A DNA stretch of 64,000 nt from Acidobacteriota bacterium (GCA_045862895.1 BTUO01000006.1:1-64000); one strand, 5' to 3'; shown: positions 6,289-33,720, numbered from the stretch's first letter. Program-made: numbers and translations. Notes: a model not told the origin generated them from the sequence alone.

Positions 6289-6322
6289 CCGGTGACAGGA
6301 TGGTCAACCATCCTGTCACCGG
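6289..6322. repeat. perfect 15-bp-arm palindrome CCGGTGACAGGATGG-tcaa-CCATCCTGTCACCGG
   Basis: Read directly, 5 bp after the tspO stop. No U-tract follows. It contains the GGTGACAG core of the recurrent intergenic motif. Confidence 0.8.
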
Positions 6323-6364
6323 ATCTCGCGGGTCGCTGGCGGTCGTGGCAGGATCGGCGGGATC

Positions 6365-6688
6365 GTGCTCGACGACCTGCTGGTCCAGATCCTCGGCGAA
6401 GCGACCCTGGGGCGGCTCGGGGAGTCCGAACGGACGAAGGCGCGCCGGCGCGTCGGGTTCGGTCTGCTCGGCACCGCGCTCGGCGTCGCCGGCGCGGTGC
6501 ACTTCGCGCTGCGCCCCGAGCCGGTGACGAACGGCGCGATGTTCGCCAGCATGATCGCGGTCTTCGTCTTCCTCGCCGCCTTCTTCCTGTTCAACGTCGC
6601 GCTCCACCGGCCGTGGCGCTGGCCGGGGCTCGGCTTCGTCCTGAGCTTCGTCGCGCTGTTCGTTGCCCGGATCCTGTTCGGACCGTGA
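6365..6688 (+). CDS. hypothetical small membrane protein
   Basis: 107-aa ORF with two or three TM helices; start uncertain. Confidence 0.35.
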   Translation: MLDDLLVQILGEATLGRLGESERTKARRRVGFGLLGTALGVAGAVHFALRPEPVTNGAMFASMIAVFVFLAAFFLFNVALHRPWRWPGLGFVLSFVALFVARILFGP

Positions 6689-6695
6689 GGCGCAG

Positions 6696-7061
6696 GTGAT
6701 CTGCCGCTCCTGCGGCGAGGACTACGAGGCCGACCAGGTGGCGGCGTGCCCGTACTGCGGCGCGGCGAACCCGCTCTCGTCGTTGCGCGGCGTCGCGGCG
6801 GACGAGATCGAGGAGCTCGGGCCGCTGGTGATGGTCGCGGAAGCGTGGGGCGACGACGAGCTCGACAGGATGCGCACCGCGCTCGAAGCGGAGGGGATGC
6901 CTCTGCTCGTCCAGCGGCGCAATCTCGCCGAGTCGATCGGCCTGGTCGCGCTGATGCGCCCGGAAGCGGAGCGCACCGAATGTCACGAGATCCTCGTGCC
7001 GGAGGAGCTCGTCGAGCGGGCGGCCGAGATCCTCGACGCGATCGAGCCGGGGGACGAGTGA
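6696..7061 (+). CDS. DUF2007-like putative signal-transducing protein
   Basis: Probable GTG start at 6696. N-terminal CxxC...CxxC zinc-ribbon-like motif, then an EAEGMPLLV-type DUF2007 region. Confidence 0.5.
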   Translation: MICRSCGEDYEADQVAACPYCGAANPLSSLRGVAADEIEELGPLVMVAEAWGDDELDRMRTALEAEGMPLLVQRRNLAESIGLVALMRPEAERTECHEILVPEELVERAAEILDAIEPGDE

Positions 7062-7062
7062 G

Positions 7063-7828
7063 CAGGTCTCCCGGCGAAGCGCCCGCGGGCCGGTTCCTCA
7101 CGGCGCGCTGGATCCACCTGGCGATGCTCAACTACGAGGTCGATCCGGCCGTGCTGGTGCCGCTCGTGCCGGCCGGGACCGAGCTCGACCTGTGGCACGG
7201 CAAGTGCTTCGCGAGCGTCGTCGGTTTCCAGTTCCTCGACACGCGCGTCCTGGGCGTCGCGGTGCCGTTCCATCGCGACTTCGAAGAAGTCAACCTGCGC
7301 TTCTACGTGCGCCGGACGGTCGGCGACGAAACGCGGCGCGGCGTCGTCTTCGTCAAGGAGATCGTGCCGCGGCGCGCGCTGGCCTGGGTCGCCAACGCGG
7401 TCTATCAGGAGAAGTACGTCGCGCTGCCAATGGCGCACGAGGACCGCATGGCCGCTTCGCCGCGGACCCTCGCCTACCGCTGGCGCTACGCCGGCCGCTG
7501 GTCGCAGCTGCGAGTCACCGCGGAAGGGGAGCCCTTCCTGCCCGCCGAGACCGCGGAAGAGACTTTCATCGCCGAGCACTACTGGGGCTACACCGCGCGG
7601 CGCGACGGCTCGACCCTCGAGTACCGGGTCGAGCACCCGCGCTGGCGAGTCTGGCGCGCCACCGGCGCCGAGCTCGACGCCGACGTCGCCGAGCTCTACG
7701 GCCCGGCGTTCGCCCCCTTCCTCCGCGGCCGCCCGGCTTCCGCCTTCGTCGCCGACGGCTCCGAGGTGATCGTCCGGCGCGGCCGGCGGCTCGCGGGCGC
7801 GACGAAGGTCAAGGGAGAGACGCGATGA
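7063..7828 (+). CDS. DUF2071 family protein
   Basis: GTG start directly after the upstream stop. Motif RWIHLAMLNYEVDP is typical of DUF2071. Confidence 0.7.
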
Positions 7829-10035: not shown

Positions 10036-11193
10036 GTGAGCGAGCCGCCCCTGCGCCGAACCGTCCCCCCGGCCGTCCGGCAGGTCGTCCGGCAGGCCGT
10101 CCGATACCTGCGCACCCCAGACGGCGTGCGCCTGGCCTGGGCCGAATCGGGGCGCGGTCCGACCCTAGTCAAGGCGTCCAACTGGCTGACCCACCTCGAG
10201 CTCGAGTGGCAGAGCCCGGTCTGGCGCCACTGGATCCGCTTCTTCTCGGACCACTTCCGCTTCGTGCGCTACGACGAGCGCGGCTGCGGCATGAGCGACT
10301 GGGAGGTCGCCGACCTCGGACCGCAGCGCTGGGCCGGCGACCTCGCGGAGGTGGTCACGGCCGCGGCCGGGGCGGAGCCGGTCGCCCTGCTCGGCGTTTC
10401 GCAGGGGGCGGCGCCGGCGATCGAGTTCGCCGTCGCCCATCCGGAGCGGGTCAGCCACCTGGTGCTCTACGGCGGCTACAGCCAGGGCTGGCGGATCCGG
10501 GGCGACGAAGCCAGCCGCCGTCGGTTCGCCGCGATGATCGAGCTGATCCAGCACGGCTGGGGGCGGGAGAATCCGGTTTTCCGGCAGCTGTTCACCTCGC
10601 GGTTCATCCCCGGCGGCACCGACGAGCAGCTCGACTGGTTCAACGACCTGTGCCGCAAGACGACCTCGCCGCACAACGCGGCGCGGCTGCTCGAGGCGCG
10701 CGCCGACGTCGACGTTCGCGGCCGGCTCGGCCAGGTGCGCGTGCCGACCCTCGTGCTGCACGCGCGCAACGACGACGTGGTGCCGCTCGCGTCCGGGCGG
10801 ATCCTGGCGAGCGAGATTCCGGGCGCCGAGTTCGTCGAGCTCGACTCGGCCAATCACATCCTGCTCGAGGACGAGCCGGCGTGGCAGCGCTTCCGCGACG
10901 CCGTGACCGAGTTCGCAGGCGTCGCCGCGCCGCCGGCGGGCACGGGGGACGACGGCGCCTTCGCCGCGCTCTCTCCGCGCGAAAGCGAGGTGCTGGCGCT
11001 GATCTGCGAGGGGCTCGCCAACGCCGAGATCGCCGCGCGGCTCGGCATCCGCGACAAGACCGTGCGTAACCACGTCTCGAACCTCTTCGACAAACTCGGC
11101 GTCTGGACGCGCGCCCAGGCGATGGTCTTCGCGCGCGACCACGGGTTCCCGGGTGCGGGCAGCCGGGCGAAGCCGGGCGCTCCGCGGAGGTGA
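10036..11193 (+). CDS. alpha/beta-hydrolase domain fused to C-terminal LuxR-type HTH regulator
   Basis: GTG start. Hydrolase core (GVSQGA nucleophile elbow, HxxxxE region), then ALSPRESEVLALICEGLANAEIAARLGIRDKTVRNHVSNLFDKLGV, a LuxR HTH. Confidence 0.75.
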   Translation: MSEPPLRRTVPPAVRQVVRQAVRYLRTPDGVRLAWAESGRGPTLVKASNWLTHLELEWQSPVWRHWIRFFSDHFRFVRYDERGCGMSDWEVADLGPQRWAGDLAEVVTAAAGAEPVALLGVSQGAAPAIEFAVAHPERVSHLVLYGGYSQGWRIRGDEASRRRFAAMIELIQHGWGRENPVFRQLFTSRFIPGGTDEQLDWFNDLCRKTTSPHNAARLLEARADVDVRGRLGQVRVPTLVLHARNDDVVPLASGRILASEIPGAEFVELDSANHILLEDEPAWQRFRDAVTEFAGVAAPPAGTGDDGAFAALSPRESEVLALICEGLANAEIAARLGIRDKTVRNHVSNLFDKLGVWTRAQAMVFARDHGFPGAGSRAKPGAPRR

Positions 11194-14326: not shown

Positions 14327-15172
14327 TCAGGGCGCGACCGCGCTCCAGATCGCGGTGCTGGCGGACTCGAAGCCGTCGCAGTAGACCCCGATCGGGGAGT
14401 CGCAGTAGAAGCTGTCGTTGACCAGGAGCAGGACGGTGACGGTCTCGCTGCCGCTCGGAGGCAGCAGCAACGAGAACTGCCAGCCACCGGTGAAGTCGGC
14501 CGGACCGAACGGCAGGCCGGTGTTGTCGAACTCGGTGATCGCCGCGTCCGAGAGCAGTGCCGGGACGTCGCCGGCGCCGAGGGGCGCGACGAGGTAGCCG
14601 CTCCACCCGGGCGATCCGGAATAGGCGGCGCGCTGCGAGCCGGAGTCGGAGAGCTCGATCAGCCCGTTGGGCGACCACTGCGCGAGCCGCGCCGAGTCGT
14701 TGCCGAAGTCGGGACGGACGTCGAAGTCGGCGAAGTGGAAGATGTCGAGCGCGAGCGGCTCGACCGCGCTGAGGTTCTCGACGGTCAGACTCATCTGGAC
14801 GAAGCCGCCGGGGGCGCCGATCTGGGGCCCGAGATCGAGCAGGATGGTGATCTCGGTCGCGGCGAACAGGCCGCGACCCGCGACGTCGTCCCACGCGATC
14901 AGCGACTCGTTGCCGACGTAGCTCTGCGAATCGGGTTGCGGCAGCGGGAACTCCCGCGTGTCGCCGGCGACGCGGAACCACCAGCCGGTTTCGAACAGGA
15001 AGTCGTCCGCCGGCGCCGAGCCGACGCCGATCAGGTCGGCGGTCGGCGTCGCGTCGAAGGGCGTCAGCGTCCTCCGGAAGGTCACGTCCCCGGCGGTCGT
15101 CTCCCCCTGCGCGAGCCCGGGGGCGGCCACGAGGGCGCCGAGGACGAGCAGGGTCCCGAATCGAATCCGCAT
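14327..15172 (-). CDS. secreted hypothetical protein carrying the C-terminal DGFE...WS..P tag
   Basis: Signal peptide MRIRFGTLLVLGALVAAPGLAQG. Ends ...YCDGFESASTAIWSAVAP. Confidence 0.7.
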   Translation of the reverse strand: MRIRFGTLLVLGALVAAPGLAQGETTAGDVTFRRTLTPFDATPTADLIGVGSAPADDFLFETGWWFRVAGDTREFPLPQPDSQSYVGNESLIAWDDVAGRGLFAATEITILLDLGPQIGAPGGFVQMSLTVENLSAVEPLALDIFHFADFDVRPDFGNDSARLAQWSPNGLIELSDSGSQRAAYSGSPGWSGYLVAPLGAGDVPALLSDAAITEFDNTGLPFGPADFTGGWQFSLLLPPSGSETVTVLLLVNDSFYCDSPIGVYCDGFESASTAIWSAVAP

Positions 15173-16317: not shown

Positions 16318-17358
16318 ATGTCGAGGAGAGTCGTCGGGTACGGGGCCCTGCTGGCGGCGATGGCGCTCGCCGCGGTTCCGGTGGTGGCGATCCGCGTCGA
16401 GATCCACACCCACTGGATTCCGGAAGCGGAGAACTCGTTCACCTTCCTGCTCGGCGACCGGGAGCTCTGTTCGTTCTCCGGGCGCGCGCCGGCCGGGCGC
16501 AACCTGAGCGACGGCGTCTGCCGTTTCGAGCTGCCCGCGAAGGCTCGCAGCCTGACCGTGCGTGGCAGCATCACCGACCGCGTCTGGGACTCCCGCACGG
16601 ACAGGATCTCGCTGAATGCCGCCGCGGGCTCGCGGACCCTCGAGCTGCGTGACGCCAGCGCGATCACGGCGCCCCTGCGCGACGCCGCGCTGCCGGTGGC
16701 GGAGCGCTGGCGGCGGTCGATCGCGGCCGAGGCGCAGCTGGTCGCCGGCTTCGGGGGCTACTCGTCGCTCTCGCTCGAGGCGGCGGCCTCGGCCGCCGAG
16801 ATCGCCGAGGCCGAGAAGCGCCTCGGCTTCGCGCTGCCGGCGGACTATCGCGAGCTGGTGAGCGCCGCGGGCGTGCCGCAGCTCGGCGACAGCTACGTCG
16901 CCCCGGTCGGGGAGCTGGTGACGGCCGACCGCACGATCCTCCACCAGTGGGGTTACGGCGACGCGGAGGTCCGCAAGTGGATGCCGGAGGCGGCGATCGA
17001 GCGACTGAAGCGGAGCGTCGTCCTCTTCTTCGAGGTCGGCGACGGCATGGGCGGCCAGCTCTTCCTGGCGCCGCCGAACGCGCCGTGCGGCGAGCGCTTC
17101 GCGACGATGTACTTCCACGAGGAGGACGGCATGGCCCCGGCGATGGCGGAGCTCGCCGCGGACCGCCTGACCTGCGCGAGCTTCGACGACACGCTGCTCG
17201 GGCACCTGGAGAGCCTGGTGCTGCTGCAGATCGAGTCGGATCTCGCCACCGAGACCGGCGAGCTCCTGTTCGACTTCTCGGCTCCGGTCCAGAAGCTCAA
17301 CCTGCGCTACTCGGTCGGCGACAAAGGAGAGCTCGAAGTCGATCTCAGTCGGGAGTAG
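16318..17358 (+). CDS. secreted protein with C-terminal SMI1/KNR4 (SUKH-1) domain
   Basis: Signal peptide. The C-terminal half contains EAEKRLGFALPADYRELV, typical of the SUKH family. Confidence 0.6.
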   Translation: MSRRVVGYGALLAAMALAAVPVVAIRVEIHTHWIPEAENSFTFLLGDRELCSFSGRAPAGRNLSDGVCRFELPAKARSLTVRGSITDRVWDSRTDRISLNAAAGSRTLELRDASAITAPLRDAALPVAERWRRSIAAEAQLVAGFGGYSSLSLEAAASAAEIAEAEKRLGFALPADYRELVSAAGVPQLGDSYVAPVGELVTADRTILHQWGYGDAEVRKWMPEAAIERLKRSVVLFFEVGDGMGGQLFLAPPNAPCGERFATMYFHEEDGMAPAMAELAADRLTCASFDDTLLGHLESLVLLQIESDLATETGELLFDFSAPVQKLNLRYSVGDKGELEVDLSRE

Positions 17359-17367
17359 CGCACAAAT

Positions 17368-17390
17368 GGTGACAGCCCCCAATTCTTCAG
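17368..17390 (+). repeat. intergenic motif GGTGACAGCCCCC-AATTCTTCAG (family copy a)
   Basis: Read directly; 34 bp upstream of a sigma70-like -35. Confidence 0.8.
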
Positions 17391-17423
17391 AACTTTGGAC
17401 TGGGAGTTCCTGCGCGGACCCCC

Positions 17424-17452
17424 TTGACAAGCCGCTCCGAGAGGCCCATACT
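17424..17452 (+). promoter_or_regulatory. sigma70-like promoter TTGACA-N17-CATACT
   Basis: Canonical -35 with 17-bp spacing; unusual in this GC-rich context. Sits upstream of a small RBS-led ORF. Confidence 0.45.
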
Positions 17453-17478
17453 CCGCGCCCTTGTTTCGAGGAGCAGCG

Positions 17479-17613: not shown

Positions 17614-17642
17614 GAAGATCGCGTGAAGCCGCGGGCTGCGCG

Positions 17643-20731: not shown

Positions 20732-20754
20732 GGTGACAGCCCCCGATTCTCCAG
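20732..20754 (+). repeat. intergenic motif GGTGACAGCCCCC-GATTCTCCAG (copy b) with inverted partner GGGGGCTGTCAC at 20822-20833
   Basis: Read directly, between rtcB and the phosphoesterase gene. Confidence 0.8.
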
Positions 20755-20848
20755 CGCCTTGGATCGACCCGTCCTCTCGAGAGGTCGGTCCGATCGGGAG
20801 CCTGGCGAACGAAGCGACAGCGGGGGCTGTCACGCATTCTTCAATAGA

Positions 20849-23071: not shown

Positions 23072-23503
23072 CGGAAGCCGGGGCGACGAGAAACTGCGTG
23101 CACGGCCATCGCAGGGCGGGGGGTCGCAGCTGCGAAGTCTCCGGTCAAGACGCCGCCGGACTCTGAATCGCGAAGGAGCGGTGGAACGGTTGGCCGTTGC
23201 CAGTTCGTCAGCGGCTGCCCATGGCGCCAGCCCCTAATCCGACGAAGCGCCCGAATCGGTTTCCTCGCGGGTCCCCGTCGAGTAGGTAGTCCTGGAGAAC
23301 GGGCAGTCGGTAGGGCAGTCACGATCTCCTGCTCGCGCCAACGGAAGGGTCTCGTGGACGCCAGCCGGAGGTCGGACTTTCAGCCGGAATGGTTCAACAG
23401 TCGCCGATCGTGAACAGAGCCGGTATGCGAGCGAGTAGCGTGGGTCTTTCGTTTCGAGTAGCGTCCATGACGTCGAGAGATCCTCGCACGGAGGAGGTGG
23501 ATC

Positions 23504-24778
23504 TTGCTCCGATTGCATCCATGTGCAAGTCGCATCGCAGCCTTCTCTTGCCTCGCGGGTGCTGTAGGCAGTATTTCGAAGGGCCAGCTACTCGGGCCCG
23601 AGTTTCAAGTGAATACGTACACCACTAGCTCGCAAGAACGGCCGGCAGTTGCCGCGATCGGGGATGAGAGCTTCGTGGTCGTGTGGGAAAGCTACGGCCA
23701 GGACGGTTGGCACCTGGGGGTTTTCGGACAGCGCTTCGGCGACGGAGCGCAGCCAATCGGAAGCGAATTTCAAGTCAACTCGATGACGGTCGGCAGGCAG
23801 TTCCGAGTCGCGGTGGCCGCCGAACCGAGCGGCGAGTTCGTGGTGGCCTGGGAGAGCTACTACGCGAACGACACGGATGTCTTCGCTCGTCGTTTCGATT
23901 CCGAGGGCAACCCAGAAGGGGAGGAGTTCCAGGTCAACAGCCGAACATCGGGTGGGCACTGCTGCGTCGACGTTCATCGGGATGGCCAGGGCGGCTTTGT
24001 TGCTCTCTGGGAGAACACTCTCTATCCCTCTCCATCCGAGATTCTCTTCCGTCGATTCGATTCCAGCGGCGTACCAATGGGCGAAGAGGTCTCCGTTGCA
24101 GGCGGCCATCCGTTGATTGGATCGCCGCGTGCCTCGATGCTCGGAATAGAAGGCTTGGCGGTGGTTTGGGAAGACCGCCCAGGGACCGATTGGGACGTGC
24201 TGGCCCGTCGCTTGGATCCGACGGGACAGCCATTGGGTGAAGCGTTCGTCGTCAGCAGTCAAGCGACGTACAATCAAAGTTCTCCGAGTGTCGGAGCGGA
24301 CTCTGAGGGAAACTTCGTCGTGGTCTGGAACTCGACGATCGGTGGTACGGAGCAAGGCTTCGGGAGGCGATTCAGTTCGACAGGCAGCGCTCTGGGAGAC
24401 GAGTTCGCGATCAACTCCTTCTACCCCTGGAGCGAATGGGAGATAGACCCTGTCGTGGCAGTTGATGGTTCGGGATCCTTCCTGGTCACGTGGCTACCTT
24501 GGGGCGTGGACGAAATCCTTGGTCAGCGGTTTCGTCCGACCGGCGCTCCGGCGGGAAACCGATTTCAAATCAACGAGTACACGCCCGGGCATCAGATGCA
24601 TTCCGCCGTTGCGGCGAACGGCGCCGGGGACTTCGTGATCGTATGGGACAGCTACGGCCAAGACGGTTCACGACACGGAGTGTGGGGGAGACGACTCCGG
24701 ATGCCGTACTTCGCTGACGGCTTCGAATCCGCGGATGTCTGCGAATGGAGTGCGACATTGGGCGGTGACTGCGTGTGA
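23504..24778 (+). CDS. secreted protein of seven ~53-aa repeats (EFQVN-Y-T-G-Q...FVVVW-S-GQDG...GVFGRRF), probable beta-propeller, tagged
   Basis: TTG start plus signal peptide. Seven tandem repeats are readable in the translation. Ends ...MPYFADGFESADVCEWSATLGGDCV. Confidence 0.7.
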   Translation: MLRLHPCASRIAAFSCLAGAVGSISKGQLLGPEFQVNTYTTSSQERPAVAAIGDESFVVVWESYGQDGWHLGVFGQRFGDGAQPIGSEFQVNSMTVGRQFRVAVAAEPSGEFVVAWESYYANDTDVFARRFDSEGNPEGEEFQVNSRTSGGHCCVDVHRDGQGGFVALWENTLYPSPSEILFRRFDSSGVPMGEEVSVAGGHPLIGSPRASMLGIEGLAVVWEDRPGTDWDVLARRLDPTGQPLGEAFVVSSQATYNQSSPSVGADSEGNFVVVWNSTIGGTEQGFGRRFSSTGSALGDEFAINSFYPWSEWEIDPVVAVDGSGSFLVTWLPWGVDEILGQRFRPTGAPAGNRFQINEYTPGHQMHSAVAANGAGDFVIVWDSYGQDGSRHGVWGRRLRMPYFADGFESADVCEWSATLGGDCV

Positions 24779-24936
24779 CCACGGGCTCCTTCGACATCGC
24801 CGTAGTCGCTGACGGACGTCCTACGTCGCATCCTGCAACCGTCGAGGCGTGGCAGAGTCAGGTTCGCGTCAAGGGCCTTCGGTCAGCGTCCTCCTGAGTA
24901 TTCTCGGGGGCCCCAGCGGACGCCCCGGGGATCGAT

Positions 24937-25063
24937 GGTGGCAGCTCCCGATTCTCCGGAGCTCTGGAGTCCCTCTCCTCCAGGGATGTCCTGGATGCCA
25001 GGATTCTGGGAGGTGGGAGCTGTCACCCTTTCAAGGAAATCGGTGGCTGCCCCCGATTCTTCG
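24937..25063 (+). repeat. composite of three motif copies (GGTGGCAGCTCCC-GATTCTCCGG; inverse GGGAGCTGTCACC; GGTGGCTGCCCCC-GATTCTTCG)
   Basis: Read directly, immediately upstream of the 25076 GTG start. Confidence 0.7.
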
Positions 25064-25075
25064 TAGGATCGGAGG

Positions 25076-26224
25076 GTGAGTCTCGAGGAGCGGTTGCGGC
25101 GATGGTTCGGCGACGACGAGCCGACGCGGCTCGGGTCCGGGTGGACGAGCGGCGTGCTGGCGGTCTTCCTCGGCGCGGTCGGGCTCGCGGCGGTGGTCTG
25201 CTTCCATTTCCCGTCGCTGTTGACGATGCCGGAGCTGCGCGCGGTCTATCCGATGCGGCTGGTGCGCACGGCGGTCGAGATCGTGATCGGCGCCGCGTTC
25301 CTGCTCGGGCTGCTGAGCCTCGCGCTGCGCCGGCGCAAGGTGCTCGGGACGACCGGCGTCGCGCTCGCGCTCGCCGCCGGGCTCGCCGGCGGCGGGGCGG
25401 TCGAGGTCGACGGGCCGGTCGCGAGGTCGCCCTACCTCGGGCTCGACTGGTTCCTGCTCAACATCCTGATGCTCTGCGTCGTCTTCGTGCCGCTCGAGAA
25501 GCTGGTCCCGCTGCGCCCGCGCGGCTTCTTCCGCGCCGGCTGGGCGACCGACGGCGTCTACTTCCTCGCCAGCCACCTGCTGGTGCAGGTCTCGACGCTG
25601 CTGACGCTGGCGCCCGCCACCGTGCTGTTCGCCTGGGCGCGCAGCGAGCGGGTGACCGCGGCGGTGGCGGCGTGGCCCGTGCTCGTTCAGTTCGTCGCGA
25701 TCGTGCTGGTCGCCGATCTCGCCGAGTACGGCATCCACCGGCTCTTCCACCGCGTCCCCTGGCTCTGGCCGTTCCACGAGGTCCACCACTCGAGCCGCGA
25801 GATGGACTGGCTGGCCGGCTCGCGGCTCCACCTGGTCGACGTCGTCGCGACGCGCGGCTTCACCTTCCTGCCCATCCACCTGCTCGGCTTCGAGCGCGGG
25901 CCGGTCGTCGCCTACCTCGCGTTCGTGTCGGTGCACGCCGTGTTCATCCACGCCAACGTGCGTCTGCGCTTCGGCGGACTCGAGCGGCTGGTGGTGACGC
26001 CGCACTTCCACCACTGGCACCACGCCGAGGAGCGCGCGGCGGTCGACAGGAACTTCGCCGTCCACTTCCCGTGGATCGATCGCCTGTTCGGCACCTTTCA
26101 CGCGCCGCTCGAGCGCTGGCCCGAGCGCTACGGCGTCGCGCCCGATCGCGTCCCCGACGGCTACCTGGCGCAGCTCGCCTTCCCGTTCGCGCCGACCCCC
26201 GACGAGACCGAACCATCGCGTTGA
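25076..26224 (+). CDS. sterol desaturase / fatty-acid hydroxylase superfamily membrane protein
   Basis: His boxes HRLFHRV, HEVHHSSREMDW and HHWHH; multiple TM helices. Confidence 0.75.
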   Translation: MSLEERLRRWFGDDEPTRLGSGWTSGVLAVFLGAVGLAAVVCFHFPSLLTMPELRAVYPMRLVRTAVEIVIGAAFLLGLLSLALRRRKVLGTTGVALALAAGLAGGGAVEVDGPVARSPYLGLDWFLLNILMLCVVFVPLEKLVPLRPRGFFRAGWATDGVYFLASHLLVQVSTLLTLAPATVLFAWARSERVTAAVAAWPVLVQFVAIVLVADLAEYGIHRLFHRVPWLWPFHEVHHSSREMDWLAGSRLHLVDVVATRGFTFLPIHLLGFERGPVVAYLAFVSVHAVFIHANVRLRFGGLERLVVTPHFHHWHHAEERAAVDRNFAVHFPWIDRLFGTFHAPLERWPERYGVAPDRVPDGYLAQLAFPFAPTPDETEPSR

Positions 26225-26488
26225 AGGCGTCGTGGCCGATCCGCGGAAGCGGACCGGATCTCGAGCTCGCCGGCCTCTCGCACGACTTCCGGGAATCCGC
26301 GACCGGCGGCGTTCCATCCCGCGGCGGGGACTGTCCGAACGACCGAGGGGTGCGCGGTGCCGAAGCCCTCCCCGGCGAGGCGGGCCCCTGCCGCCCCCGC
26401 GGGGCGTGGCGGTGCTCGGCAGAGTCTTCATTCTGTCGAAAGCGACTGGGATCCAGGGGGGGGCGAGGGCACGAAGGAGACCGGCTCA

Positions 26489-27921
26489 TGCGCACGGGCA
26501 TCGCAGCGTCCACGTCCTCGATCCTCACCGCCTTCGTCCTCGTCGGCGCGGCGGGCGCCGAGCTGACTCCCGAGTGGATGACGCGGGTCGCCGTCGGCAA
26601 CTCGCTCGCCGCCGGACCGCAAGGACTGGTCGTCCGCGCCGACGGGGTCTCCTTCCAGACCGGCACCACGGGCTCGTCCTCGAACACCGACGTGACGACC
26701 CAGGCGTTCGACACCGACGGTGCGTCGCTCTGGTCGCACACCTTCGACGGTCCCGCCTCCTGGCACGACCAGGCGCGCGGGATCGCGCTCGGCGTCGACG
26801 GCCACGTCTACGTCACCGGCAACACGCCGGGTCCCGGCAGCTACGCCAACCTGCTGGTGCTCGAGTACGACGCGGCGACCGGCGCCCTGGTCGACAGCAT
26901 CCAGCTCGCCGCCGGACAGTGGACGTCGGAACACGGCGCTTCGATCGCGGTCGATGCCGAGGGCAACATCTACGTCGGCGGCGGCACGGTCGGCGACGGC
27001 GGCGACGCGTTGATCGTGTCGTTCGACGCCGAAGGCGACCTGCGCTGGCGCGAGACCTGGGACGGACCGGCGGAGTCGCCCTATTCCGGAGACACCGTCC
27101 TGGAGGTGCTGCTCGCGCCCGACGGCGACCTCGTGACCCTGATCCACGGGGTGATGGGCTCGCTGCATCCCGACTACGTCGTGCGCAAGTACGCCCGGGC
27201 CGACGGCGCGCTGCGCTGGCACTCGACCTGGGGCGTCAATGGTGGCGACTATCCGCGCGATCTCGAGCTCGACGCGCAAGGCGACGTCTACGTCACCGGC
27301 ACCGGCATCGACTTCGTCGACAAGTACTCGACGGTCAAGCTGCGCGGCAGCGACGGCGCGCTGCTCTGGCAGGGCTACGACACGTACGACCATCACAACT
27401 CGGCGACCGCCCTCGCGCTCGACGGCAGCGGCGGCGTCTACGTGACCGGCTCGGTCGACCCGGACGGCGATCGCTCCAACTCGAACGACAACTTCTTCAC
27501 CATCAAGCGCGACGCCGCGACCGGCGAGCACCTGTGGAGCCACCTCTACGGCGCCAACTGCCTGTACTGCTTCGACGCGCCGGCCGACGTCGCCGCCGAT
27601 CCGGCGGGGCACGTCTTCGTCGCGGGCCGGACCTCGTCGCCGCCTTACGCTGCGGACGCCATCCTGCTCGTACTGGATGCCGAGACCGGGCTGGAGCTGG
27701 ATCGCGGCATCGTGGCCGGCGCCAGCCCGAGCGAGGGCGTCGCTCCCGGCATCCTCCTGTTCGACGCCGACTTCGACCTCTACGACGGCGGCAGCTCGAC
27801 CGACTACGACACCGGCCAGATCCAGATGGGCGTCACGAAATGGACCTCGCTCGTCGATCCGATCCTCCGGGACGGGTTCGACGACGGCAGCACCGCGGCG
27901 TGGAGCGCGGTCGTTCCCTGA
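26489..27921 (+). CDS. secreted SBBP-repeat beta-propeller protein, tagged
   Basis: Signal peptide. Repeated D-x-x-G-N/H-V/I-Y-V-T/G-G blades. Ends ...ILRDGFDDGSTAAWSAVVP. Confidence 0.75.
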
Positions 27922-27984
27922 CCCCGGAAGCGCTCCCGCGACTGCGGTAGTCTGCGCCGCCATGACGGCCGGGCGCGACGCCAG

Positions 27985-29889
27985 GTGTTGAAGCGGCTCC
28001 TCGCCGACCGGCCGGCGGCGCTCGCGGCCGGAATCGGGCTGATCGTGCTCGCGGCCGCGACGGCCTGGTTCTTCACCTCCGCATCCGATCGCGGACCGAC
28101 CGCGGCGCTCAGCGCCGACGGTTTCTACTACCACGCCTGGCTTCCGACGCTGGTCTACGACCGCGACCTCGATCTCGCCGACGAGTACGCCGTCTTCGAC
28201 AATTTCTACTGCTTCGGCGCGGCTCCCTCGGGGCGGCCGGGCAATCCGTTCGGGATCGGGCCGGCGCTCTACGAGCTGCCGTTCTTCCTCGCCGGCGCGA
28301 CCGTGGGGAAGCTCACCGGCGCCGCGCTCGACGGCTTCAGCCGTCCCGAGGTGGTCGCGACGATGCTCGCCTCGCTGGTCGCGTCGTGGGCGGCGATGTT
28401 CTTCGCCTGGCGGCTGATCCGCCGACGGCTGGGCTCGCCGTGGCTGGCGATCGCCGCGCCGCTGCTGATCATGGCGGGCGGTCCGTTCGTCTACTACGCG
28501 ATCCGGCAGCCCGGCTACGCCCACCCGTTCGCGACGCTTTTCGCTGCCTGGCTGGTCGACCTCTGGGACTCGACGTTCGATCGCGAAGCGCCGCGATCGG
28601 TGCGCACCTGGGCGGCGCTCGGCGCGGTCTTCGGTCTGGCGGTGCTGGCGCGCACCCAGCTCGCGACCTGGGGCATCCTGCTCGCGATCGCGATCTTCGA
28701 CGACCTGCGCCGCACCGCGCGCGCGGCGACCGGAAGCGCGGCCGGCGCCGGCGCGCGGGAGCTCGCCCGCGCGCTCGCGCCGGCCTGGCTCGCCGGCGCC
28801 GGCGCGACGCTGCTCGTGATCGCGCCGCAACTTCTTGTCTGGCGCTCGCTCTACGGCCGGTTCTGGCTGGTGCCGCAGGGGGAAGGATTCCTGCGCTGGG
28901 ACGCGCCGGCGTGGAGCGAGACGCTGTTCTCGTCGCGCAACGGGCTGTTTGCCTACGCGCCGCTGCTCGCGTTCGCGCTGGTCGGCCTGGTCGTCGGGCT
29001 CCGCCGGGCGCCTCGCCTTTCGGGTGCGCTGTTCGCGGGCGTCGCGCTCCAGGCGGTCGCCAACGGTGCGGCGTGGGACTGGTGGGCGGGCGGCTCGCTG
29101 GGCGGCCGGCGCTTCGACTCCACCTACGTCGCGTTCGCTTTCGGGCTCGCGGCGCTGGCGGCGCCGATCGGGGGCGCGGTGAAGTCACCGGCGTTCCGCC
29201 TCACCGCGCGCGCCTGGGCTGCCGCGGTTCTGGTCGTCGCGCTCGGGCTGGCGCTCGCCAATCTCCGGCTCGTCGCCGTCACCGCGTCGCACACGGCGCG
29301 CATCGGCGGCGGCAAGCCGGCACCGGTCGTCTTCCGCGAAAGGTTGCCACGACCGCTCGCCCGCCTGGCCGGCGCCGCGTCGTCCGTGGCGACCTGGCCG
29401 GCGCGCGCGCGATTCGCCCGAATTCACGGCGTCTCGGCCGAGGCCTACGACTACGTCGCCGGCGTCCACCTGCTCGAGGAGCGATTTCCCGGCCTCAACT
29501 GCGACCCGAAGCCGCCGCGCCAGCGGCTGCGCCTGTCGAGCCAGCCGCGCCGGCTGGTCGGTCTCGCACGGGCCGCGGAGAGCGACGTCGTCCTGACGGG
29601 CGATCGGGCGCGCGTCCTGCTCGGCTTCAACCGCCATGGCCCGGTCGAGATCGAGCTCGGCGGCATCGTCGCGCCCGCCGGCACCCCGTCGGTGGAGGTG
29701 GTTCTCGACTTCAACGGTGAGCCGATCGCCAGCGCCTGGATCGGTGGCGAGCGCGCGTCGATCCGCGGCACCGCGCGCGAGCTTCGGCGTGGCGTCAACA
29801 TCCTGGAGATCGGGGCGCTTGCCGGCACCCGATTCCGCTGGCTCGAGCTCTCCGGCCCGCCGACCGCGCTCGGTGACCGCGCTCCGTAG
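27985..29889 (+). CDS. large polytopic membrane protein, possibly GT-C-fold (ArnT/PMT-like) glycosyltransferase
   Basis: About 12 TM helices, then a ~200-aa periplasmic C-terminal domain. The family call rests only on architecture and a YYHAW-type loop. Confidence 0.4.
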   Translation: MLKRLLADRPAALAAGIGLIVLAAATAWFFTSASDRGPTAALSADGFYYHAWLPTLVYDRDLDLADEYAVFDNFYCFGAAPSGRPGNPFGIGPALYELPFFLAGATVGKLTGAALDGFSRPEVVATMLASLVASWAAMFFAWRLIRRRLGSPWLAIAAPLLIMAGGPFVYYAIRQPGYAHPFATLFAAWLVDLWDSTFDREAPRSVRTWAALGAVFGLAVLARTQLATWGILLAIAIFDDLRRTARAATGSAAGAGARELARALAPAWLAGAGATLLVIAPQLLVWRSLYGRFWLVPQGEGFLRWDAPAWSETLFSSRNGLFAYAPLLAFALVGLVVGLRRAPRLSGALFAGVALQAVANGAAWDWWAGGSLGGRRFDSTYVAFAFGLAALAAPIGGAVKSPAFRLTARAWAAAVLVVALGLALANLRLVAVTASHTARIGGGKPAPVVFRERLPRPLARLAGAASSVATWPARARFARIHGVSAEAYDYVAGVHLLEERFPGLNCDPKPPRQRLRLSSQPRRLVGLARAAESDVVLTGDRARVLLGFNRHGPVEIELGGIVAPAGTPSVEVVLDFNGEPIASAWIGGERASIRGTARELRRGVNILEIGALAGTRFRWLELSGPPTALGDRAP

Positions 29890-30025
29890 CCGGGGGCGGC
29901 GGCTGCCGGGTGCCCGGAGCGGTCCGAGAGCCTCCCGTCGTTTCTGGCACGTCGTTCGCAGTCTCCTCCTCGCAGCGGGCGCTCCTCACGGAGGGAGTGC
30001 GTGCCAACAGCGATCGGAGGTCCAG

Positions 30026-30397
30026 ATGGCGAACTTGTTGACCCGAACCGAGCGAAAGTTGAAGAACAGTGCAAAAGAGACCGGCGAAGCCCTCGCGCAC
30101 CGGCGAGCCGAGCTGTCGAGCGAGCTCGACGAGCTCCTGGGAACCCTCACCAACAAGGTCACCGACGTGCGCAGGGCGATCGCCGACGCCGCCGACGAAG
30201 GGGCGGAGGCGGCGAGCCACGGGCTCGAGGTGGCCATGCGCAAGGGGCGCAAGGGGGTTCGTCAGCTCGAGTCGAAGTGGAGCTCGATGGACACGCGGCA
30301 GAAGGCCGGTGTCGTCGCCGGCCTGGTGGCGGTGCTCGCCGCGGCCGCCGCGACGCCCACGATCGTGCGCAAGGTGCGCGAGGCGCGCAACCACTAG
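30026..30397 (+). CDS. small membrane-anchored coiled-coil protein (ElaB/YqjD/DUF883-like)
   Basis: RBS GGAGG. Helical, charged N-terminal region and a C-terminal TM (AGVVAGLVAVLAAAAA). Confidence 0.5.
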   Translation: MANLLTRTERKLKNSAKETGEALAHRRAELSSELDELLGTLTNKVTDVRRAIADAADEGAEAASHGLEVAMRKGRKGVRQLESKWSSMDTRQKAGVVAGLVAVLAAAAATPTIVRKVREARNH

Positions 30398-30439
30398 GGG
30401 CGGCCCCCGGTCCGTCGTGAGCTGCGCCTGACCCGGTTG

Positions 30440-31105
30440 TCAGGTCGGATCGAGGACGGGGTCCGTTCTGGCAGTCGGCGCGGAGCCCGGCGGCAGGACC
30501 GGTTGCGCGGCGGGCTCGTCTTTCGGCGGATTGATCATGATGTGCGCGCCGGCCGTGCCGGGGAACATGATCCAGGGCGCGCCCGGAGCCATCGGTGTTT
30601 CGGCGAGCCCGGTCGTCGCCGACGTCGCCCACGGCGTGTAGACGACGTAACGCCGGTACGGTTCGAGGACGGCGCCGTCCGCCGGGTCGATGCCGGTGCC
30701 GGAGAGAACGTAGAGCACCGCGGGCTCTTTCGGCATCGCGAGGGTGCCGGCTTCGGCCTCCTTCCAGCGAAGCTGCTGCCGCTGGACGTCGGGGACGCCC
30801 TCGGCCTTGAGCTCGCGCCCGCGCTTCATGTACGGCTCGAGCGACCGGGCATAGCAGGCGACCCGCACGCCGGGGTCGCCGGGAGGGTGGGCCAGGCAGA
30901 TCAGGTCGTTGCTCCCCTCGCGCAACGTCACCAGAGCGCCCGACGGATCGTAGCCGAGCACCGTCGCTCCCTCGCGCAACGCCTCCGGCGCCGCCTGGAC
31001 CGCGAGCGCGATCTGCCGCGACGCGGCCGGAACTTCGCCGGCGACCGCCGCCGGAGCGACCGCGAACGCTGCCGCGGCGAGCCACCTGGTTGTCATCTTT
31101 CGCAT
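30440..31105 (-). CDS. secreted hypothetical protein
   Basis: Internal start MRKMTTRWLAAAAFAVAPAAVAG gives a signal peptide. The long upstream extension is spurious. Confidence 0.55.
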   Translation of the reverse strand: MRKMTTRWLAAAAFAVAPAAVAGEVPAASRQIALAVQAAPEALREGATVLGYDPSGALVTLREGSNDLICLAHPPGDPGVRVACYARSLEPYMKRGRELKAEGVPDVQRQQLRWKEAEAGTLAMPKEPAVLYVLSGTGIDPADGAVLEPYRRYVVYTPWATSATTGLAETPMAPGAPWIMFPGTAGAHIMINPPKDEPAAQPVLPPGSAPTARTDPVLDPT

Positions 31106-31257
31106 CGAATCCCCTCCTTCGAGGCCGGAACCCCGGCGACGGACCTCCGGCCGGCTGGAGCGCCCATTCTGGCGTGAGTCGAGCGGCGGTGGGGAGGGTC
31201 CGGCACAGGCCGGCGGCGGCGACGCCCGCGTCGCCGCCGCCGCTCGAACCGCCGTCG

Positions 31258-32049
31258 TTACTTGAACCAGGCGGCGATGATCCGCGCGAAGTAGTCGCGG
31301 TGCTCGCCGTTGTCGGTCATGCCGTTCGACGCGGCGGCGGCGGCTTCGCGCTCGCCCTCGGAGCGCTCGCCGCTGGACGCGCGTAGCGCCGCTTCGATCT
31401 GGTCCTCGCCGGCGGCGCTGGTCGAGATCGTCGCGATGTAGCGAACCGTGGGCGGACCGGTGTGGACGTCCTCGTACTGCACCGAGTAGCCCGCGAGCGC
31501 GCCGTCGGCCATCAACTGCTCGTAGACCGGCTTGGTGTAGGCGTTCCACATCTTCAGCCATGCCCCGCCTTCGCCCGGACGCATGACCTGGCGATTGACG
31601 TAGAGGAATCCGCCGTTGATCGCCCCGGAGCGGCGACCGCCGGACGCCGTGCGCAGCAGGAAGTCGTGGTGCCCGGCACCGACCAGCGCCGGGTGCGAGG
31701 GCGCCTTGGCCAGCGCGGCGAGCACCTTGTCCATGTCGGCGAAGCTCGCGGTCGTCCACCAGGTGCCGTGGGTGTTGCCGCCGTCGGTGTGAACGAAGGT
31801 CTCGTAGATGCCCCAGTCGAGGAGCACCCCCTCGCTGGCCAGCCGCTCGAGGATCGGCTTGTCCTGCTTCATCGTCCATTCGTGGTAGCCCTGCCACTGC
31901 GAGCGCGGCAGCGTCCATTCGGCGACGTAGGTGAAGGCCGGCGGCGCCTCGTCCTGGGCGAAGCTCGGGACGGGAACGGCGGCGAGCGTGGCGACGGCGA
32001 GCGCGGCGACGGCGAGACGGCGGAATCTCGGGATGGAATTCGACGACAT
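31258..32049 (-). CDS. secreted hypothetical protein
   Basis: Start MSSNSIPRFRRLAVAALAVATLAAVPVPSFAQ, a signal peptide. Confidence 0.55.
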   Translation of the reverse strand: MSSNSIPRFRRLAVAALAVATLAAVPVPSFAQDEAPPAFTYVAEWTLPRSQWQGYHEWTMKQDKPILERLASEGVLLDWGIYETFVHTDGGNTHGTWWTTASFADMDKVLAALAKAPSHPALVGAGHHDFLLRTASGGRRSGAINGGFLYVNRQVMRPGEGGAWLKMWNAYTKPVYEQLMADGALAGYSVQYEDVHTGPPTVRYIATISTSAAGEDQIEAALRASSGERSEGEREAAAAASNGMTDNGEHRDYFARIIAAWFK

Positions 32050-32339
32050 GGAAACCCCTCCTGCGAAGGACGGGCTCCGAGATGGAGCCCGACCGCCGGC
32101 GTGCGCGTCGAGCGGTCCTCGATGCGTCGCCGCCAGAGCTCCGGCCACGGGCGAGCTACGACCCGTCCGCCGTGCAGGGGGCGGCGTCGAGAGGTGCCGG
32201 ACGCGAATCCACCGGGAAGACCGATCCAGCGTAGTCGTTCGGCCCGCGGAAGTCACGGGAAATCGGAGCGCAGGGCCGGTCGGGGGCGGGATCTGGCCCG
32301 CGCCGGGCCGATCCGTCGCTTTCGGAGGCGGAGGCAGCC

Positions 32340-33590
32340 ATGTCCACGACTTTGCGCACCCTCGCCGCCGCCCTGACGACGACCGTCCTGCTCGCCGCGC
32401 CAGCGGTCGCGGTCAAACGCCGCGCCTTCGTGACCTCGGTCTCGGGCAACGGCAACCTCAACTCCTGGCCGGACGCCGGAGGGCTGTTCGCTCTCGCCGC
32501 CGGTGACGCCATCTGTCGGGCGCGGGCGAACGCCGCCGGCCTGCCGTTCGCGAACTCCTATCGCGTCTGGCTGTCGACGGCGACGACCGACGCCTACTGC
32601 CACGTCCAGGGGCAGACCGGAGAGAAGGCCACCGGCTGCTCCGGCTCCCCGCTGCCGCGGGGTCCCTGGTACCGGGTCGACGGGACCACGGCGTTCGCGG
32701 CGGACCTGGACGAGCTGACCGGCAACCTCCACGAGGTGTACACCGGAGTCCTCCAGGAGGAGGACGGTACGGTGCTGACGGCGACCGACCCCTCCGGTTA
32801 CTGGACCGGCACGTCGGCGAGCGGGGAGGGAGTGTCCGAGACCTGCTCGAGCTGGGTCGTGGCGGCGGCCGACGTCCAGGGCCGCACCGGCACGGCGCTG
32901 TCGAGCGCGGTGCGCTGGACGGAGGCCTTCTCGACGGCCTGCGACCAGGATCGCCGCCTGCTCTGTCTCGAGCCCGGGCTCAGCGACCCGGTGCCTGTTG
33001 TTCCATGGCAGCCAGCGGCGCTCGCGTTCGTGACCAGCATGACGGGCAACGGCAATCTCGGGCAGTGGCCGGTCGCGGGCGACGCCACCGGAATCGAGGC
33101 CGGTGACGAGATCTGCTGCGCCCTGGCCGCTATCGAGCACCTGCCGGCGCCGGAGTCGTTCGTCGCCTGGCTCTCGGACTCGCAGACCGACGCGCGCGAC
33201 CGCCTGACTCTCGCCGGAGTACCCTATCGGCGGCTGGATCATCGGGTCGTCGCGACCTCGAAGGCCGACCTCGTCGACGGCACCAATCTGGACAGCCTGC
33301 ACGTCGACGAGACCGGGAGCTACGTCGACGACTTCCTGGTCGTCGCCACGGGGACGCTCGCCGACGGTACCTGGGAGGGGTCGAGCTGCGACGACTGGAC
33401 CGCGTCGCCTTCGACCAACGTCCGGAGCGGCTACGCCTCTTCGCTGAACGGCGGGACCTGGACCGCCGGCGTCGGCTCCGCCTGCATCACCAGCAAGCGC
33501 CTCTACTGCTTCTCGAACGTGGTCACGATCTTCTGGGACGGTTTCGAGCTCACGGGAGACGCCAGCCGCTGGTCGAGCGCCAGCCCGTGA
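32340..33590 (+). CDS. secreted protein with two DUF1554-like repeats (FVTS-x-GNGNL...W), tagged
   Basis: Signal peptide. Internal duplication readable (AFVTSVSGNGNLNSWPDAGG... and AFVTSMTGNGNLGQWPVAGD...). Ends ...FWDGFELTGDASRWSSASP. Confidence 0.7.
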   Translation: MSTTLRTLAAALTTTVLLAAPAVAVKRRAFVTSVSGNGNLNSWPDAGGLFALAAGDAICRARANAAGLPFANSYRVWLSTATTDAYCHVQGQTGEKATGCSGSPLPRGPWYRVDGTTAFAADLDELTGNLHEVYTGVLQEEDGTVLTATDPSGYWTGTSASGEGVSETCSSWVVAAADVQGRTGTALSSAVRWTEAFSTACDQDRRLLCLEPGLSDPVPVVPWQPAALAFVTSMTGNGNLGQWPVAGDATGIEAGDEICCALAAIEHLPAPESFVAWLSDSQTDARDRLTLAGVPYRRLDHRVVATSKADLVDGTNLDSLHVDETGSYVDDFLVVATGTLADGTWEGSSCDDWTASPSTNVRSGYASSLNGGTWTAGVGSACITSKRLYCFSNVVTIFWDGFELTGDASRWSSASP

Positions 33591-33618
33591 CCTTTCCGAG
33601 GGGATATCCGGAGGTTTC

Positions 33619-33720
33619 GGGGACAGCCACCGATCTTGCTCGATACCCGTTTCGCTGAATCGGATCGTCCTCGAACGGGGACGCTCGATTCAGGAATCTG
33701 GAGAATTGGGGGCTGTCACC
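33619..33720. repeat. motif pair: GGGGACAGCCACC (33619-33631) and CTGGAGAATT-GGGGGCTGTCACC (33698-33720, inverse of the unit)
   Basis: Read directly, between the tagged gene and the NYN gene. Confidence 0.75.

What the first reader, a model, noticed from the sequence alone, without database searches (positions are those of the whole stretch)
6289..33720. Recurrent intergenic DNA motif GGTGACAGCCCCC-GATTCTCCAG (and inverse) at six or more loci, mostly just upstream of + strand genes
Copies are readable at:
- 17368-17390
- 20732-20754, with inverted head GGGGGCTGTCAC at 20822-20833
- 22301-22333 (inverse, with an 11-bp insertion)
- 24937-24959, 25015-25027 (inverse head) and 25042-25063
- 33619-33631 and 33698-33720 (inverse)

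The GGTGACAG core also forms the arms of the perfect palindrome at 6289-6322. The 13-mer head occurs exactly or nearly exactly at least four times, against ~0 expected by chance. The head can invert relative to the GATTCTYCAG tail, as DNA-binding half-sites can. Every copy lies in a 100-250-bp gap on the 5' side of a gene. Those genes are the small transcription unit at 17479, the tagged phosphoesterase, the tagged jelly-roll protein, the sterol-desaturase-family gene and the NYN gene. This fits a shared operator or sigma-factor site defining a regulon. A small MITE or REP-like element preferring intergenic space is the alternative.
Basis: seen in the sequence. Interest (0 to 1): 0.6.

Follow-up and report, generated by a model that had tools for sequence, protein, structure and literature searches.

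The report
Small palindromic repeat elements between genes
The recurring motif is the two ends of a roughly 100-base palindromic repeat that has been inserted between genes in an uncultured Acidobacteria-like bacterium; it looks like a new family of an ordinary kind of small "junk or mobile" repeat, not a shared gene switch.

Summary
The 23-mer occurs 4 times (≤3 mismatches) against 0 expected, and the 13-mer head 10 times (≤2 mismatches) against 2.8 expected. All listed coordinates are correct.

The "heads" are not isolated half-sites. They are the terminal inverted repeats of 91-111 bp near-perfect palindromes with a conserved centre (GTCCTC..GAGGAC):
- Full copies: 20732-20834, 24937-25027, 33619-33720.
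- Decayed full copy: 22231-22333.
- Solo ends: 17368-17390 and 25042-25063.

Related metagenomic genomes carry the same family:
- L114 has 3 copies, one at a site where the window has none.
- L029 has 2 copies. All four arms carry the variant GGTGACAGCGACC, and one copy lies between convergent genes.
- Orthologous gaps in other relatives (L030, L116) are empty.
- A strain whose flanks are 98.7% identical carries a copy only 67% identical at the same site.

Both arms co-vary. I found no target-site duplications, no attC boxes, no Rfam match, and no transposase or integrase in the window.

Best reading: a lineage-specific MITE/REPIN-like non-autonomous palindromic repeat. It is not an operator or sigma-site regulon. 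The genome-wide copy number and the mobilising enzyme could not be determined.

The parts
17368..17390 (+). Solo left terminus (head plus tail) of the repeat, 9 nt after the stop of the SUKH/SMI1_KNR4 gene. There is no partner arm. It is absent at the orthologous site in L114.
   Evidence: (nhmmer E=3.2e-8)
20732..20834 (.). Full 103-bp palindromic element. It fills the RtcB-to-phosphoesterase gap, lying 11 nt after the RtcB stop and 23 nt before the next start.
   Evidence: RNA hairpin -59.1 kcal/mol, z=-3.9; 82.4 bits
22231..22333 (.). Decayed full-length element. The right end at 22301-22333 is well preserved but has an 11-bp insertion; the left arm is degenerate.
   Evidence: E=7.4e-5; 26.8 bits, E=1.7e-4; no stable fold of 22260-22343 (z=+0.38)
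24937..25027 (.). Full 91-bp palindromic element. Both arms carry the same private variant (GCTCCC / GGGAGC).
   Evidence: -57.9 kcal/mol, z=-2.6; 74.2 bits
25042..25063 (+). Extra solo terminus, 14 nt after the full element and 12 nt before the fatty-acid-hydroxylase/sterol-desaturase-family gene start. It is absent at the same place in L114.
   Evidence: (E=1.4e-6)
33619..33720 (.). Full 102-bp palindromic element between the tagged 416-aa gene and the NYN gene. The orthologous gap in L116 is 62 nt and empty.
   Evidence: -54.1 kcal/mol, z=-3.1; 74.2 bits
6289..6322 (.). 34-bp palindrome just after the TspO stop codon. It shares only CCGGTGACAG with the family. It is probably an independent terminator-like hairpin, and membership is unproven.
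   Evidence: (E=5-9, noise level)

Best explanation
The motif marks the two ends of a lineage-specific family of non-coding, non-autonomous palindromic repeats, 91-111 bp long. Each has 13-29 bp terminal inverted repeats beginning GGTGACAGC and a conserved central mini-hairpin. The family occurs in an uncultured, Thermoanaerobaculia-like Acidobacteriota lineage.

Shown:
- The anatomy of the element.
- Its occurrence as full units, decayed units and solo ends.
- Presence/absence differences between related genomes at orthologous gaps.
- Replacement of one copy by a different subfamily copy in a near-identical strain.
- Within-genome homogeneity of the arms, and compensatory changes between the arms.
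- Absence of target-site duplications.

Inferred:
- Copies are spread or homogenised by an enzyme encoded elsewhere in the genome. This would be a transposase that needs both ends, or a RAYT-like single-strand enzyme acting on the hairpin.
- They survive mainly in short gaps just after stop codons because insertions there are tolerated.
- When transcribed through, each folds into a hairpin of about 40-50 bp (-54 to -72 kcal/mol). That hairpin may incidentally end or stabilise the upstream message.
- They also appear to coincide with gene gain/loss breakpoints in this variable region.
For: 1. Anatomy. Heads pair as inverted termini 78-98 bp apart. Full elements align end to end, with a shared centre GTCCTC..GAGGAC. 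The long hairpins have z-scores of -2.6 to -10.2.

2. Compensatory arm changes. Columns 10/104 read CG in 5 sequences, GC in 2 and UA in 1. Columns 11/103 read CG in 5 and AU in 2.

3. The same family occurs in relatives.
- L029 (RtcB 87% identical) has 2 full copies.
- L114 (83-91% nucleotide identity) has 3 full copies.

4. Concerted evolution. The four L029 arms are 84% identical to each other but 56-58% identical to window and L114 arms, and all four carry GCGACC.

5. Filled versus empty sites.
- The L030 RtcB-to-phosphoesterase gap has no element.
- The L116 tagged-gene-to-NYN gap is 62 nt, against 175 nt in the window.
- L114 has no half-copy after the SUKH gene.
- L114 copy A lies where the window has no element.

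6. Turnover. In strain L010 the flanks are 98.7% identical, yet the element after RtcB is only 67% identical to the window copy.

7. Location. One L029 copy lies between convergent genes.

8. Other tests found nothing. There are no further copies in the other ~48 kb of the window or in 7.4 kb beyond it. There is no Rfam match.

9. Resemblance to REPINs. The organisation of inverted doublets forming hairpins, compensatory changes and solo ends as remnants matches the published description of REPINs (PMC3116915).
Against: - No transposase, RAYT or integrase was found in the window.
- No target-site duplications were seen at any of about 10 ends.
- Copy number could not be measured genome-wide.
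- The copies are clustered. All 5 loci fall among 12 consecutive gaps of 45 (span test p~0.01), whereas a typical dispersed repeat would be spread more evenly.
- Exact-pattern scans of the genome, metagenome and viral collections returned only single chance hits. No high-copy genome was seen.
- The private compensatory change in both arms of 24937-25027 could instead mean selection on the hairpin itself.
Confidence: 0.68

Rival explanations
1. The elements are selected cis-acting RNA or DNA hairpins at the 3' ends of genes. They would act as terminators, processing sites or 3' stabilisers that punctuate a run of co-oriented genes. Their spread would be by duplication or gene conversion rather than transposition.
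For: - Every copy lies 0-158 nt after a stop codon of a co-oriented gene, in three genomes.
- The hairpins are strong.
- T-rich stretches follow the right arm in about 5 of 9 copies in a 71% GC genome.
- A compensatory change private to one copy is seen at 24937-25027, and a strain SNP turns a G.U pair into G-C.
Against: - The terminator scan flags none of the copies, because there is no run of T.
- RtcB in L029 already has its own hairpin before the element.
- Orthologous gene ends in L030 and L116 do without the element.
- The copy at one site was replaced outright in a 98.7%-identical strain.
- Solo and decayed copies exist.
Confidence: 0.13
2. The head is an operator or alternative-sigma promoter element shared by a local regulon of RNA-repair and secreted-protein genes.
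For: - The copies cluster within 16.4 kb (p~0.01).
- They end 12-45 nt before several start codons.
- The reverse strand of two copies reads GGAAT/GGATT-N16-17-GTCA, which is ECF-sigma-like.
- A LuxR/GerE-type regulator gene lies at about 10036-11193.
Against: - Both orientations occur at each site, because the head is a terminal inverted repeat.
- The spacing is broken in 22301-22333 and in the L029 copies.
- One copy lies between convergent genes.
- The element is absent upstream of orthologues in L030 and L116 and present at non-homologous sites in L114.
- All arms changed in concert in L029.
- No ECF sigma gene is in the window.
Confidence: 0.05
3. The elements are recombination sites (attC-like, a cluster of attC sites without integrase, or another site-specific system). 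Such sites would shuffle gene cassettes, notably genes for proteins with the C-terminal DGFExGDxxxWS tag.
For: - The size (91-111 bp) and the imperfect-palindrome form are attC-like.
- All flanking genes are co-oriented.
- The phosphoesterase gene is bracketed by two elements in the window, and L114 has a single element in its place. Three of six window/L114 rearrangement breakpoints abut elements.
- All four genes present in the window but missing from L114 carry the tag.
Against: - No copy has the AAC...GTT (R''/R') boxes of attC.
- The L029 6250-6360 arms pair perfectly over 27+ bp, with no extrahelical bases or unpaired spacer.
- No integrase is present.
- 'Cassettes' would be 1.4-8.6 kb and multi-gene.
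- Three of six breakpoints have no element.
- The window gene at 14327-15172, which sits where L114 has copy A, is not flanked by elements.
Confidence: 0.07

Closest known systems
REPINs (REP doublets forming hairpins, mobilised by RAYT transposases; Bertels & Rainey 2011, PMC3116915)
   Same: - Both are symmetrical extragenic units of about 70-110 bp, made of two highly conserved ends in inverted orientation separated by a less conserved spacer.
- Both are predicted to form hairpins.
- Compensatory changes occur on the two sides.
- Solo ends occur as apparent remnants.
- There are no target-site duplications.
- Sequence families are lineage-specific (one search compared).
   Different: - The conserved end here is not itself a short palindrome.
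- It lacks the GTAG or CGTC tetranucleotide described for REPs (title and abstract of PMC3733652).
- No RAYT gene was seen.
- Abundance is unknown, and the copies seen are clustered rather than dispersed.
Bacterial MITEs with long terminal inverted repeats, such as the Neisseria Correia elements and ERIC (comparison from general knowledge)
   Same: Both are about 100-150 bp, non-coding, intergenic and often co-transcribed. Both have terminal inverted repeats of more than 20 bp (23 bp perfect in L114 copy A, 27 bp perfect in the L029 copy at 6250-6360) and are polymorphic between strains.
   Different: No target-site duplication was found at any copy. No parent insertion sequence with the same ends is known. 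No promoter-like sequence lies inside the elements.
Integron attC sites and clusters of attC sites lacking an integrase (CALIN)
   Same: Both are 57-141 bp imperfect palindromes that follow ORFs in co-oriented arrays. Both form species-specific sequence families. Gene content differs between relatives at element-flanked units.
   Different: The defining R''/R' boxes (RYYYAAC...GTTRRRY) are absent. The arms can pair perfectly, without extrahelical bases. There is no integrase. The units between elements are large and multi-gene.

Membership tests
MITE (DDE-transposase-derived) | Terminal inverted repeats at both ends | tested here: met
   The arms are 13-29 bp. L114 2705-2797 has 23 bp perfect and L029 6250-6360 has 27 bp perfect.
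MITE (DDE-transposase-derived) | Direct target-site duplication flanking each copy | tested here: not met
   The flanks of about 10 element ends were compared. No direct repeat of 2 nt or more was shared by the left and right flanks.
MITE (DDE-transposase-derived) | Small, non-coding and present in multiple copies in one genome | tested here: met
   The elements are 91-111 bp. The window has 4 full or decayed copies plus 2 solo ends. L114 has 3 copies in 9.4 kb and L029 has 2 in 7.3 kb. The genome-wide number is unknown.
MITE (DDE-transposase-derived) | An autonomous insertion sequence with the same ends in the genome or in relatives | not testable with these tools
   Only about 71 kb of this genome was reachable. 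No transposase lies in it.
REP / REPIN | Two conserved ends in inverted orientation that form a hairpin with the spacer, with compensatory changes between the sides | tested here: met
   The definition is taken from PMC3116915.
REP / REPIN | Each end is a 20-40 nt imperfect palindrome carrying a GTAG or CGTC head | tested here: not met
   GGTGACAGCCCCCRATTCTYCAG is not self-complementary and has no GTAG or CGTC at its tip. The definition is taken from PMC3733652.
REP / REPIN | A cognate RAYT (Y1 transposase) gene flanked by the repeats | not testable with these tools
   None occurs in the window. The rest of the genome could not be reached.
REP / REPIN | High copy number dispersed through extragenic space | tested here: inconclusive
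   There are 5 loci in 71 kb, but all lie within 16.4 kb. About 100 kb from more distant relatives holds none.
Integron attC / CALIN | R'' (RYYYAAC) and R' (GTTRRRY) boxes at the two ends | tested here: not met
   No AAC...GTT pair occurs at or next to the ends of any window or L114 copy. The L029 flanks read TGAAC...GTTCA, which also departs from the consensus.
Integron attC / CALIN | Integron integrase nearby (for an integron), or an array of two or more attC sites with single-ORF cassettes (for a CALIN) | tested here: not met
   No Phage_integrase-type hit was found. The units between elements are 1.4-8.6 kb, and some hold several genes.
Transcription-factor operator or sigma-factor promoter regulon | Conserved position and orientation upstream of orthologous genes in related genomes | tested here: not met
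   The element is absent upstream of the phosphoesterase in L030 and of NYN and the fatty-acid hydroxylase in L116. It lies between convergent genes in L029 and at a new site in L114.
Intrinsic terminator | GC-rich hairpin followed by a U-tract | tested here: inconclusive
   The hairpins are strong. The scan flags none of them, and the tails are only moderately T-rich.
Any Rfam RNA family | Covariance-model match | tested here: not met
   There were 0 matches at gathering score across the window. No match on any element was found at E<=5 in 17000-34500.

The most novel reading that the evidence does not exclude
The palindromes could be the recombination or 'docking' sites of an undescribed cassette-shuffling system in Thermoanaerobaculia-like Acidobacteriota. 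Such a system would move genes in and out of this variable region, especially genes for secreted proteins carrying the C-terminal DGFExGDxxxWS tag. It would be functionally integron-like but would have unrelated sites and an unknown recombinase.
Probability: 0.07. Interest if true: 0.7.

Novelty: new member of a known kind. Interest (0 to 1): 0.3.

Why it matters
Practical value:
- The motif should not be used to infer a regulon linking RtcB, the NYN nuclease and the tagged secreted proteins.
- The family gives a sequence and structure model (an HMM and a covariance model) that can mask or flag these repeats when annotating metagenome-assembled genomes of this lineage. In those assemblies contigs visibly break at the elements.

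Scientific value is modest. The result adds a REPIN/MITE-like family in a phylum where such repeats are barely described. It also shows concerted change of both arms between sister genomes, and turnover at one site between strains whose flanking DNA is 98.7% identical. If a complete genome showed an associated enzyme, or junctions of gene gain and loss inside the elements, the family would become more interesting.

Tried and rejected
1. Sigma-54 reading of the reverse strand. The GG-N10-GC spacing fits, but the TGGCAC and TTGC boxes do not (by eye).

2. ECF-sigma reading (GGAAT-N17-GTCA). It fits only the copies at 33684-33718 and 25003-25025. It fails in 22301-22333, 20822 and the L029 copies.

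3. An 'outer tail' box (ATTCTTCA) outside the head. The sequence after 20834 is the native upstream region of the phosphoesterase gene and is also present in element-free L030. The element therefore ends at the head.

4. attC or integron. There are no AAC/GTT boxes and no integrase.

5. Derivation of the head from the coding sequence of the C-terminal tag. The best matches are 7-8 of 13, apart from the chance hit at 53789.

6. Exact-pattern scans of the GTDB genomes, JGI metagenomes and IMG/VR returned only single chance hits, several of them in coding sequence. The lineage appears to be missing from those collections.

7. Walking off the window. The left side is blocked, because contigs end near window position 459. 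The right side gave 7.4 kb with no copies.

8. A literature search for the 13-mer found only an unrelated human primer.

9. NCBIfam and Pfam searches of the unannotated neighbouring proteins found no recombinase.


Full report
**Source and context**

The window is 71% GC. It is carried by contigs assembled from public sequencing runs of environmental samples. The closest named homologues of its RtcB and sterol-desaturase-family proteins come from Acidobacteriota / Thermoanaerobaculia metagenome-assembled genomes, at 74-79% identity. The organism is therefore probably an uncultured member of that group.

Genes around the finding, all on the + strand:

| Coordinates | Gene |
|---|---|
| 16318-17358 | SUKH/SMI1_KNR4 |
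| about 17400-18247 | 850-nt non-coding stretch |
| 18248-19396 | Band_7 |
| 19491-20720 | RtcB |
| 20858-22225 | metallophosphoesterase |
| 22460-23071 and 23504-24778 | two unknown proteins |
| 25076-26224 | fatty-acid hydroxylase / sterol-desaturase family |
| 26488-27921 | beta-propeller protein |
| 27985-29889 | 634-aa protein |
| 32340-33590 | 416-aa protein |
| 33766-34236 | NYN_YacP protein |

**Check of the observation**

- The 13-mer head has 10 hits at <=2 mismatches, against 2.8 expected.
- The 23-mer has 4 hits at <=3 mismatches, against 0 expected.
- Nine of the ten head hits lie between 17.3 and 33.8 kb. The tenth, at 53789, is inside a coding region and is a chance match.

**What the motif is**

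Orienting each head and adding its flanks shows that the copies pair up as inverted termini: 20732 with 20822, 24937 with 25015, and 33619 with 33708. These pairs give units of 103, 91 and 102 bp. The units align with each other end to end, in either orientation, and share a central mini-palindrome GTCCTC..GAGGAC.

As single strands they fold into long hairpins of -54 to -59 kcal/mol, with z-scores of -2.6 to -3.9.

A covariance model built from eight full copies recovers these units. It also shows that the 22301-22333 copy is the right end of a decayed full-length unit at 22231-22333 (26.8 bits). The copies at 17368-17390 and 25042-25063 are solo ends.

Neither the half-element HMM nor the covariance model finds any further copy in the rest of the window or in 7.4 kb beyond its right edge.

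The 6289-6322 palindrome shares only CCGGTGACAG with the family and scores at noise level.

**Related genomes**

Three other sources carry the family.

- **L029** (RtcB 87% identical) has two 111-bp copies.
  - One lies after an unrelated upstream gene and before the conserved promoter of the Band_7-RtcB unit.
  - The other lies after RtcB, between two convergent genes.
  - All four arms read GGTGACAGCGACC instead of GGTGACAGCCCCC. The arms are 84% identical to each other but 56-58% identical to window arms.
- **L114** (83-91% nucleotide identity to the window) has three 92-94 bp copies.
  - One lies after a truncated RtcB.
  - One lies just before the hydroxylase gene, and is more similar to the window's 33619-33720 copy than to the copy at the equivalent place.
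  - One lies at a site where the window has a reverse-strand gene (14327-15172) and no element. In that copy, the TGA inside the head serves as the stop codon of the preceding gene.
- **L010** is a strain whose flanks are 98.7% identical to the window. Yet the element after RtcB is only 67% identical to the window's, with divergence beginning 8 nt after the stop codon.

Several orthologous gaps are empty:
- RtcB to phosphoesterase in L030.
- Tagged gene to NYN in L116, which is 62 nt against 175 nt in the window.
- After the SUKH gene in L114.

About 100 kb from more distant relatives (L026, L027, L032-L034, L116) holds no copy.

**Arms, ends and neighbours**

The terminal stem shows changes on both sides that keep the pairing:
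- Columns 10/104: CG in 5 sequences, GC in 2, UA in 1.
- Columns 11/103: CG in 5 sequences, AU in 2.

One of these changes is private to the 24937-25027 copy.

No direct duplication flanks any copy. The ends have no AAC...GTT boxes.

Pfam and NCBIfam scans of all window genes find no transposase, Y1/RAYT enzyme or integrase. Rfam has no match.

**Position**

In the window, all five loci lie in gaps between co-oriented + genes. They sit 9-158 nt after a stop codon and 12-126 nt before the next start. They fall among 12 consecutive gaps out of 45 (span test p~0.01). The position therefore fits 'after a gene' at least as well as 'before a gene'. The convergent-gene copy in L029 fits only 'after a gene'.

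The promoter and terminator scan finds no promoter-like site and no canonical terminator in any copy.

**Interpretation**

The primary reading of the first stage, an operator or sigma-factor site defining a regulon, fails three tests. Orientation is not fixed, because the head is a terminal inverted repeat. The element is not conserved upstream of orthologues. And L029 has a copy with no downstream gene to regulate.

The evidence fits a lineage-specific, non-autonomous palindromic repeat. The closest described organisation is the REPIN: two conserved ends in inverted orientation forming a hairpin, with compensatory changes and with solo ends as remnants (PMC3116915). MITEs with long terminal inverted repeats are the next closest.

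It is not a demonstrated member of either class:
- The ends are not short palindromes with a GTAG or CGTC head.
- There are no target-site duplications.
- No cognate enzyme was seen.
- Copy number could not be measured.

**What remains open**

Two things are not explained by a simple dispersed-repeat model.

First, the copies are clustered.

Second, the elements are associated with a region of gene gain and loss. Of six rearrangement breakpoints between L114 and the window, three abut elements. The phosphoesterase gene is bracketed by two elements in the window and replaced by one element in L114. All four genes missing from L114 encode proteins with the C-terminal DGFExGDxxxWS tag.

These points keep alive a low-probability reading in which the elements are recombination sites for gene cassettes. 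They may equally reflect repeats accumulating in, and recombining within, a variable region.

**Verdict**

This is a new family of a known kind, of low to moderate interest.

Noticed in passing
window 17424-17686 (also L029 about 2733-3010 and L114 about 4889-5165): A sigma-70-like promoter (TTGACA-N17-CATACT, 17424-17452) is followed about 190 nt later by a strong terminator hairpin with a T-run (17642-17686). The unit lies upstream of Band_7-RtcB. Promoter, body and terminator are conserved at the DNA level in three genomes. It has no Rfam family; the only hit is ctRNA_pGA1 at E=0.039, below the gathering score.
   Followed up: partly
window 22175-22225, 23021-23071, 24716-24778, 27871-27921, 33537-33590, 59400-59450, 53759-53836 (-), 14327-14377 (-): Eight proteins in the window end with the same C-terminal motif, F/W-x-D-G/D-F-E/D-x-G/A-D/S-x3-W-S-x3-5-P, followed by the stop. 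Searches of seven of them (the one ending at 53759 was searched against Pfam only) gave no Pfam or NCBIfam match over this motif; the one ending at 59450 was searched only in another reading frame. All four genes present in the window but absent from relative L114 belong to this tagged set. It may be an uncharacterised sorting or secretion signal of this lineage.
   Followed up: partly
L114 5240-6412 compared with window 17777-20753: In relative L114, Band_7 is almost entirely deleted (window 17778-19297 is missing). RtcB has an internal 536-bp deletion (window 19988-20523) that leaves a 230-aa product. In L030, Band_7 is shortened to 218 aa. The Band_7-RtcB unit appears to be decaying in some relatives.
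   Followed up: no
window 6289-6322: A 34-bp palindrome with 16 bp arms (19 bp with flanks) lies 5 nt after the TspO stop codon. It is probably a terminator hairpin and shares only 10 nt with the repeat family.
   Followed up: partly
L116 8181-8347: An unrelated inverted repeat (31-nt arms, 94% complementary, 105 nt apart) sits upstream of the hydroxylase orthologue in L116. This is the position where the window and L114 carry the GGTGACAG family. That gap may be a preferred landing place for palindromic elements.
   Followed up: no
window 18068-18102: A 35-bp stretch in the non-coding region upstream of Band_7 is absent from the 99.4-99.9% identical strain contig L008.
   Followed up: no
L112 1198-6270 (7.4 kb beyond the right edge of the window) and window 16318-17358: A 1690-aa RHS-repeat protein lies just outside the window, and a SUKH/SMI1_KNR4 gene (an immunity-type family) lies inside it. 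This hints at polymorphic-toxin and immunity content in the neighbourhood.
   Followed up: no
L030 2274-2308: In the element-free RtcB-to-phosphoesterase gap of L030 there is a short hairpin, GGGGACTGTCCCC-N8-GGGGGACAGTCCCC. Its arm matches the head at 11 of 13 positions. This could be chance, a remnant or a precursor.
   Followed up: no
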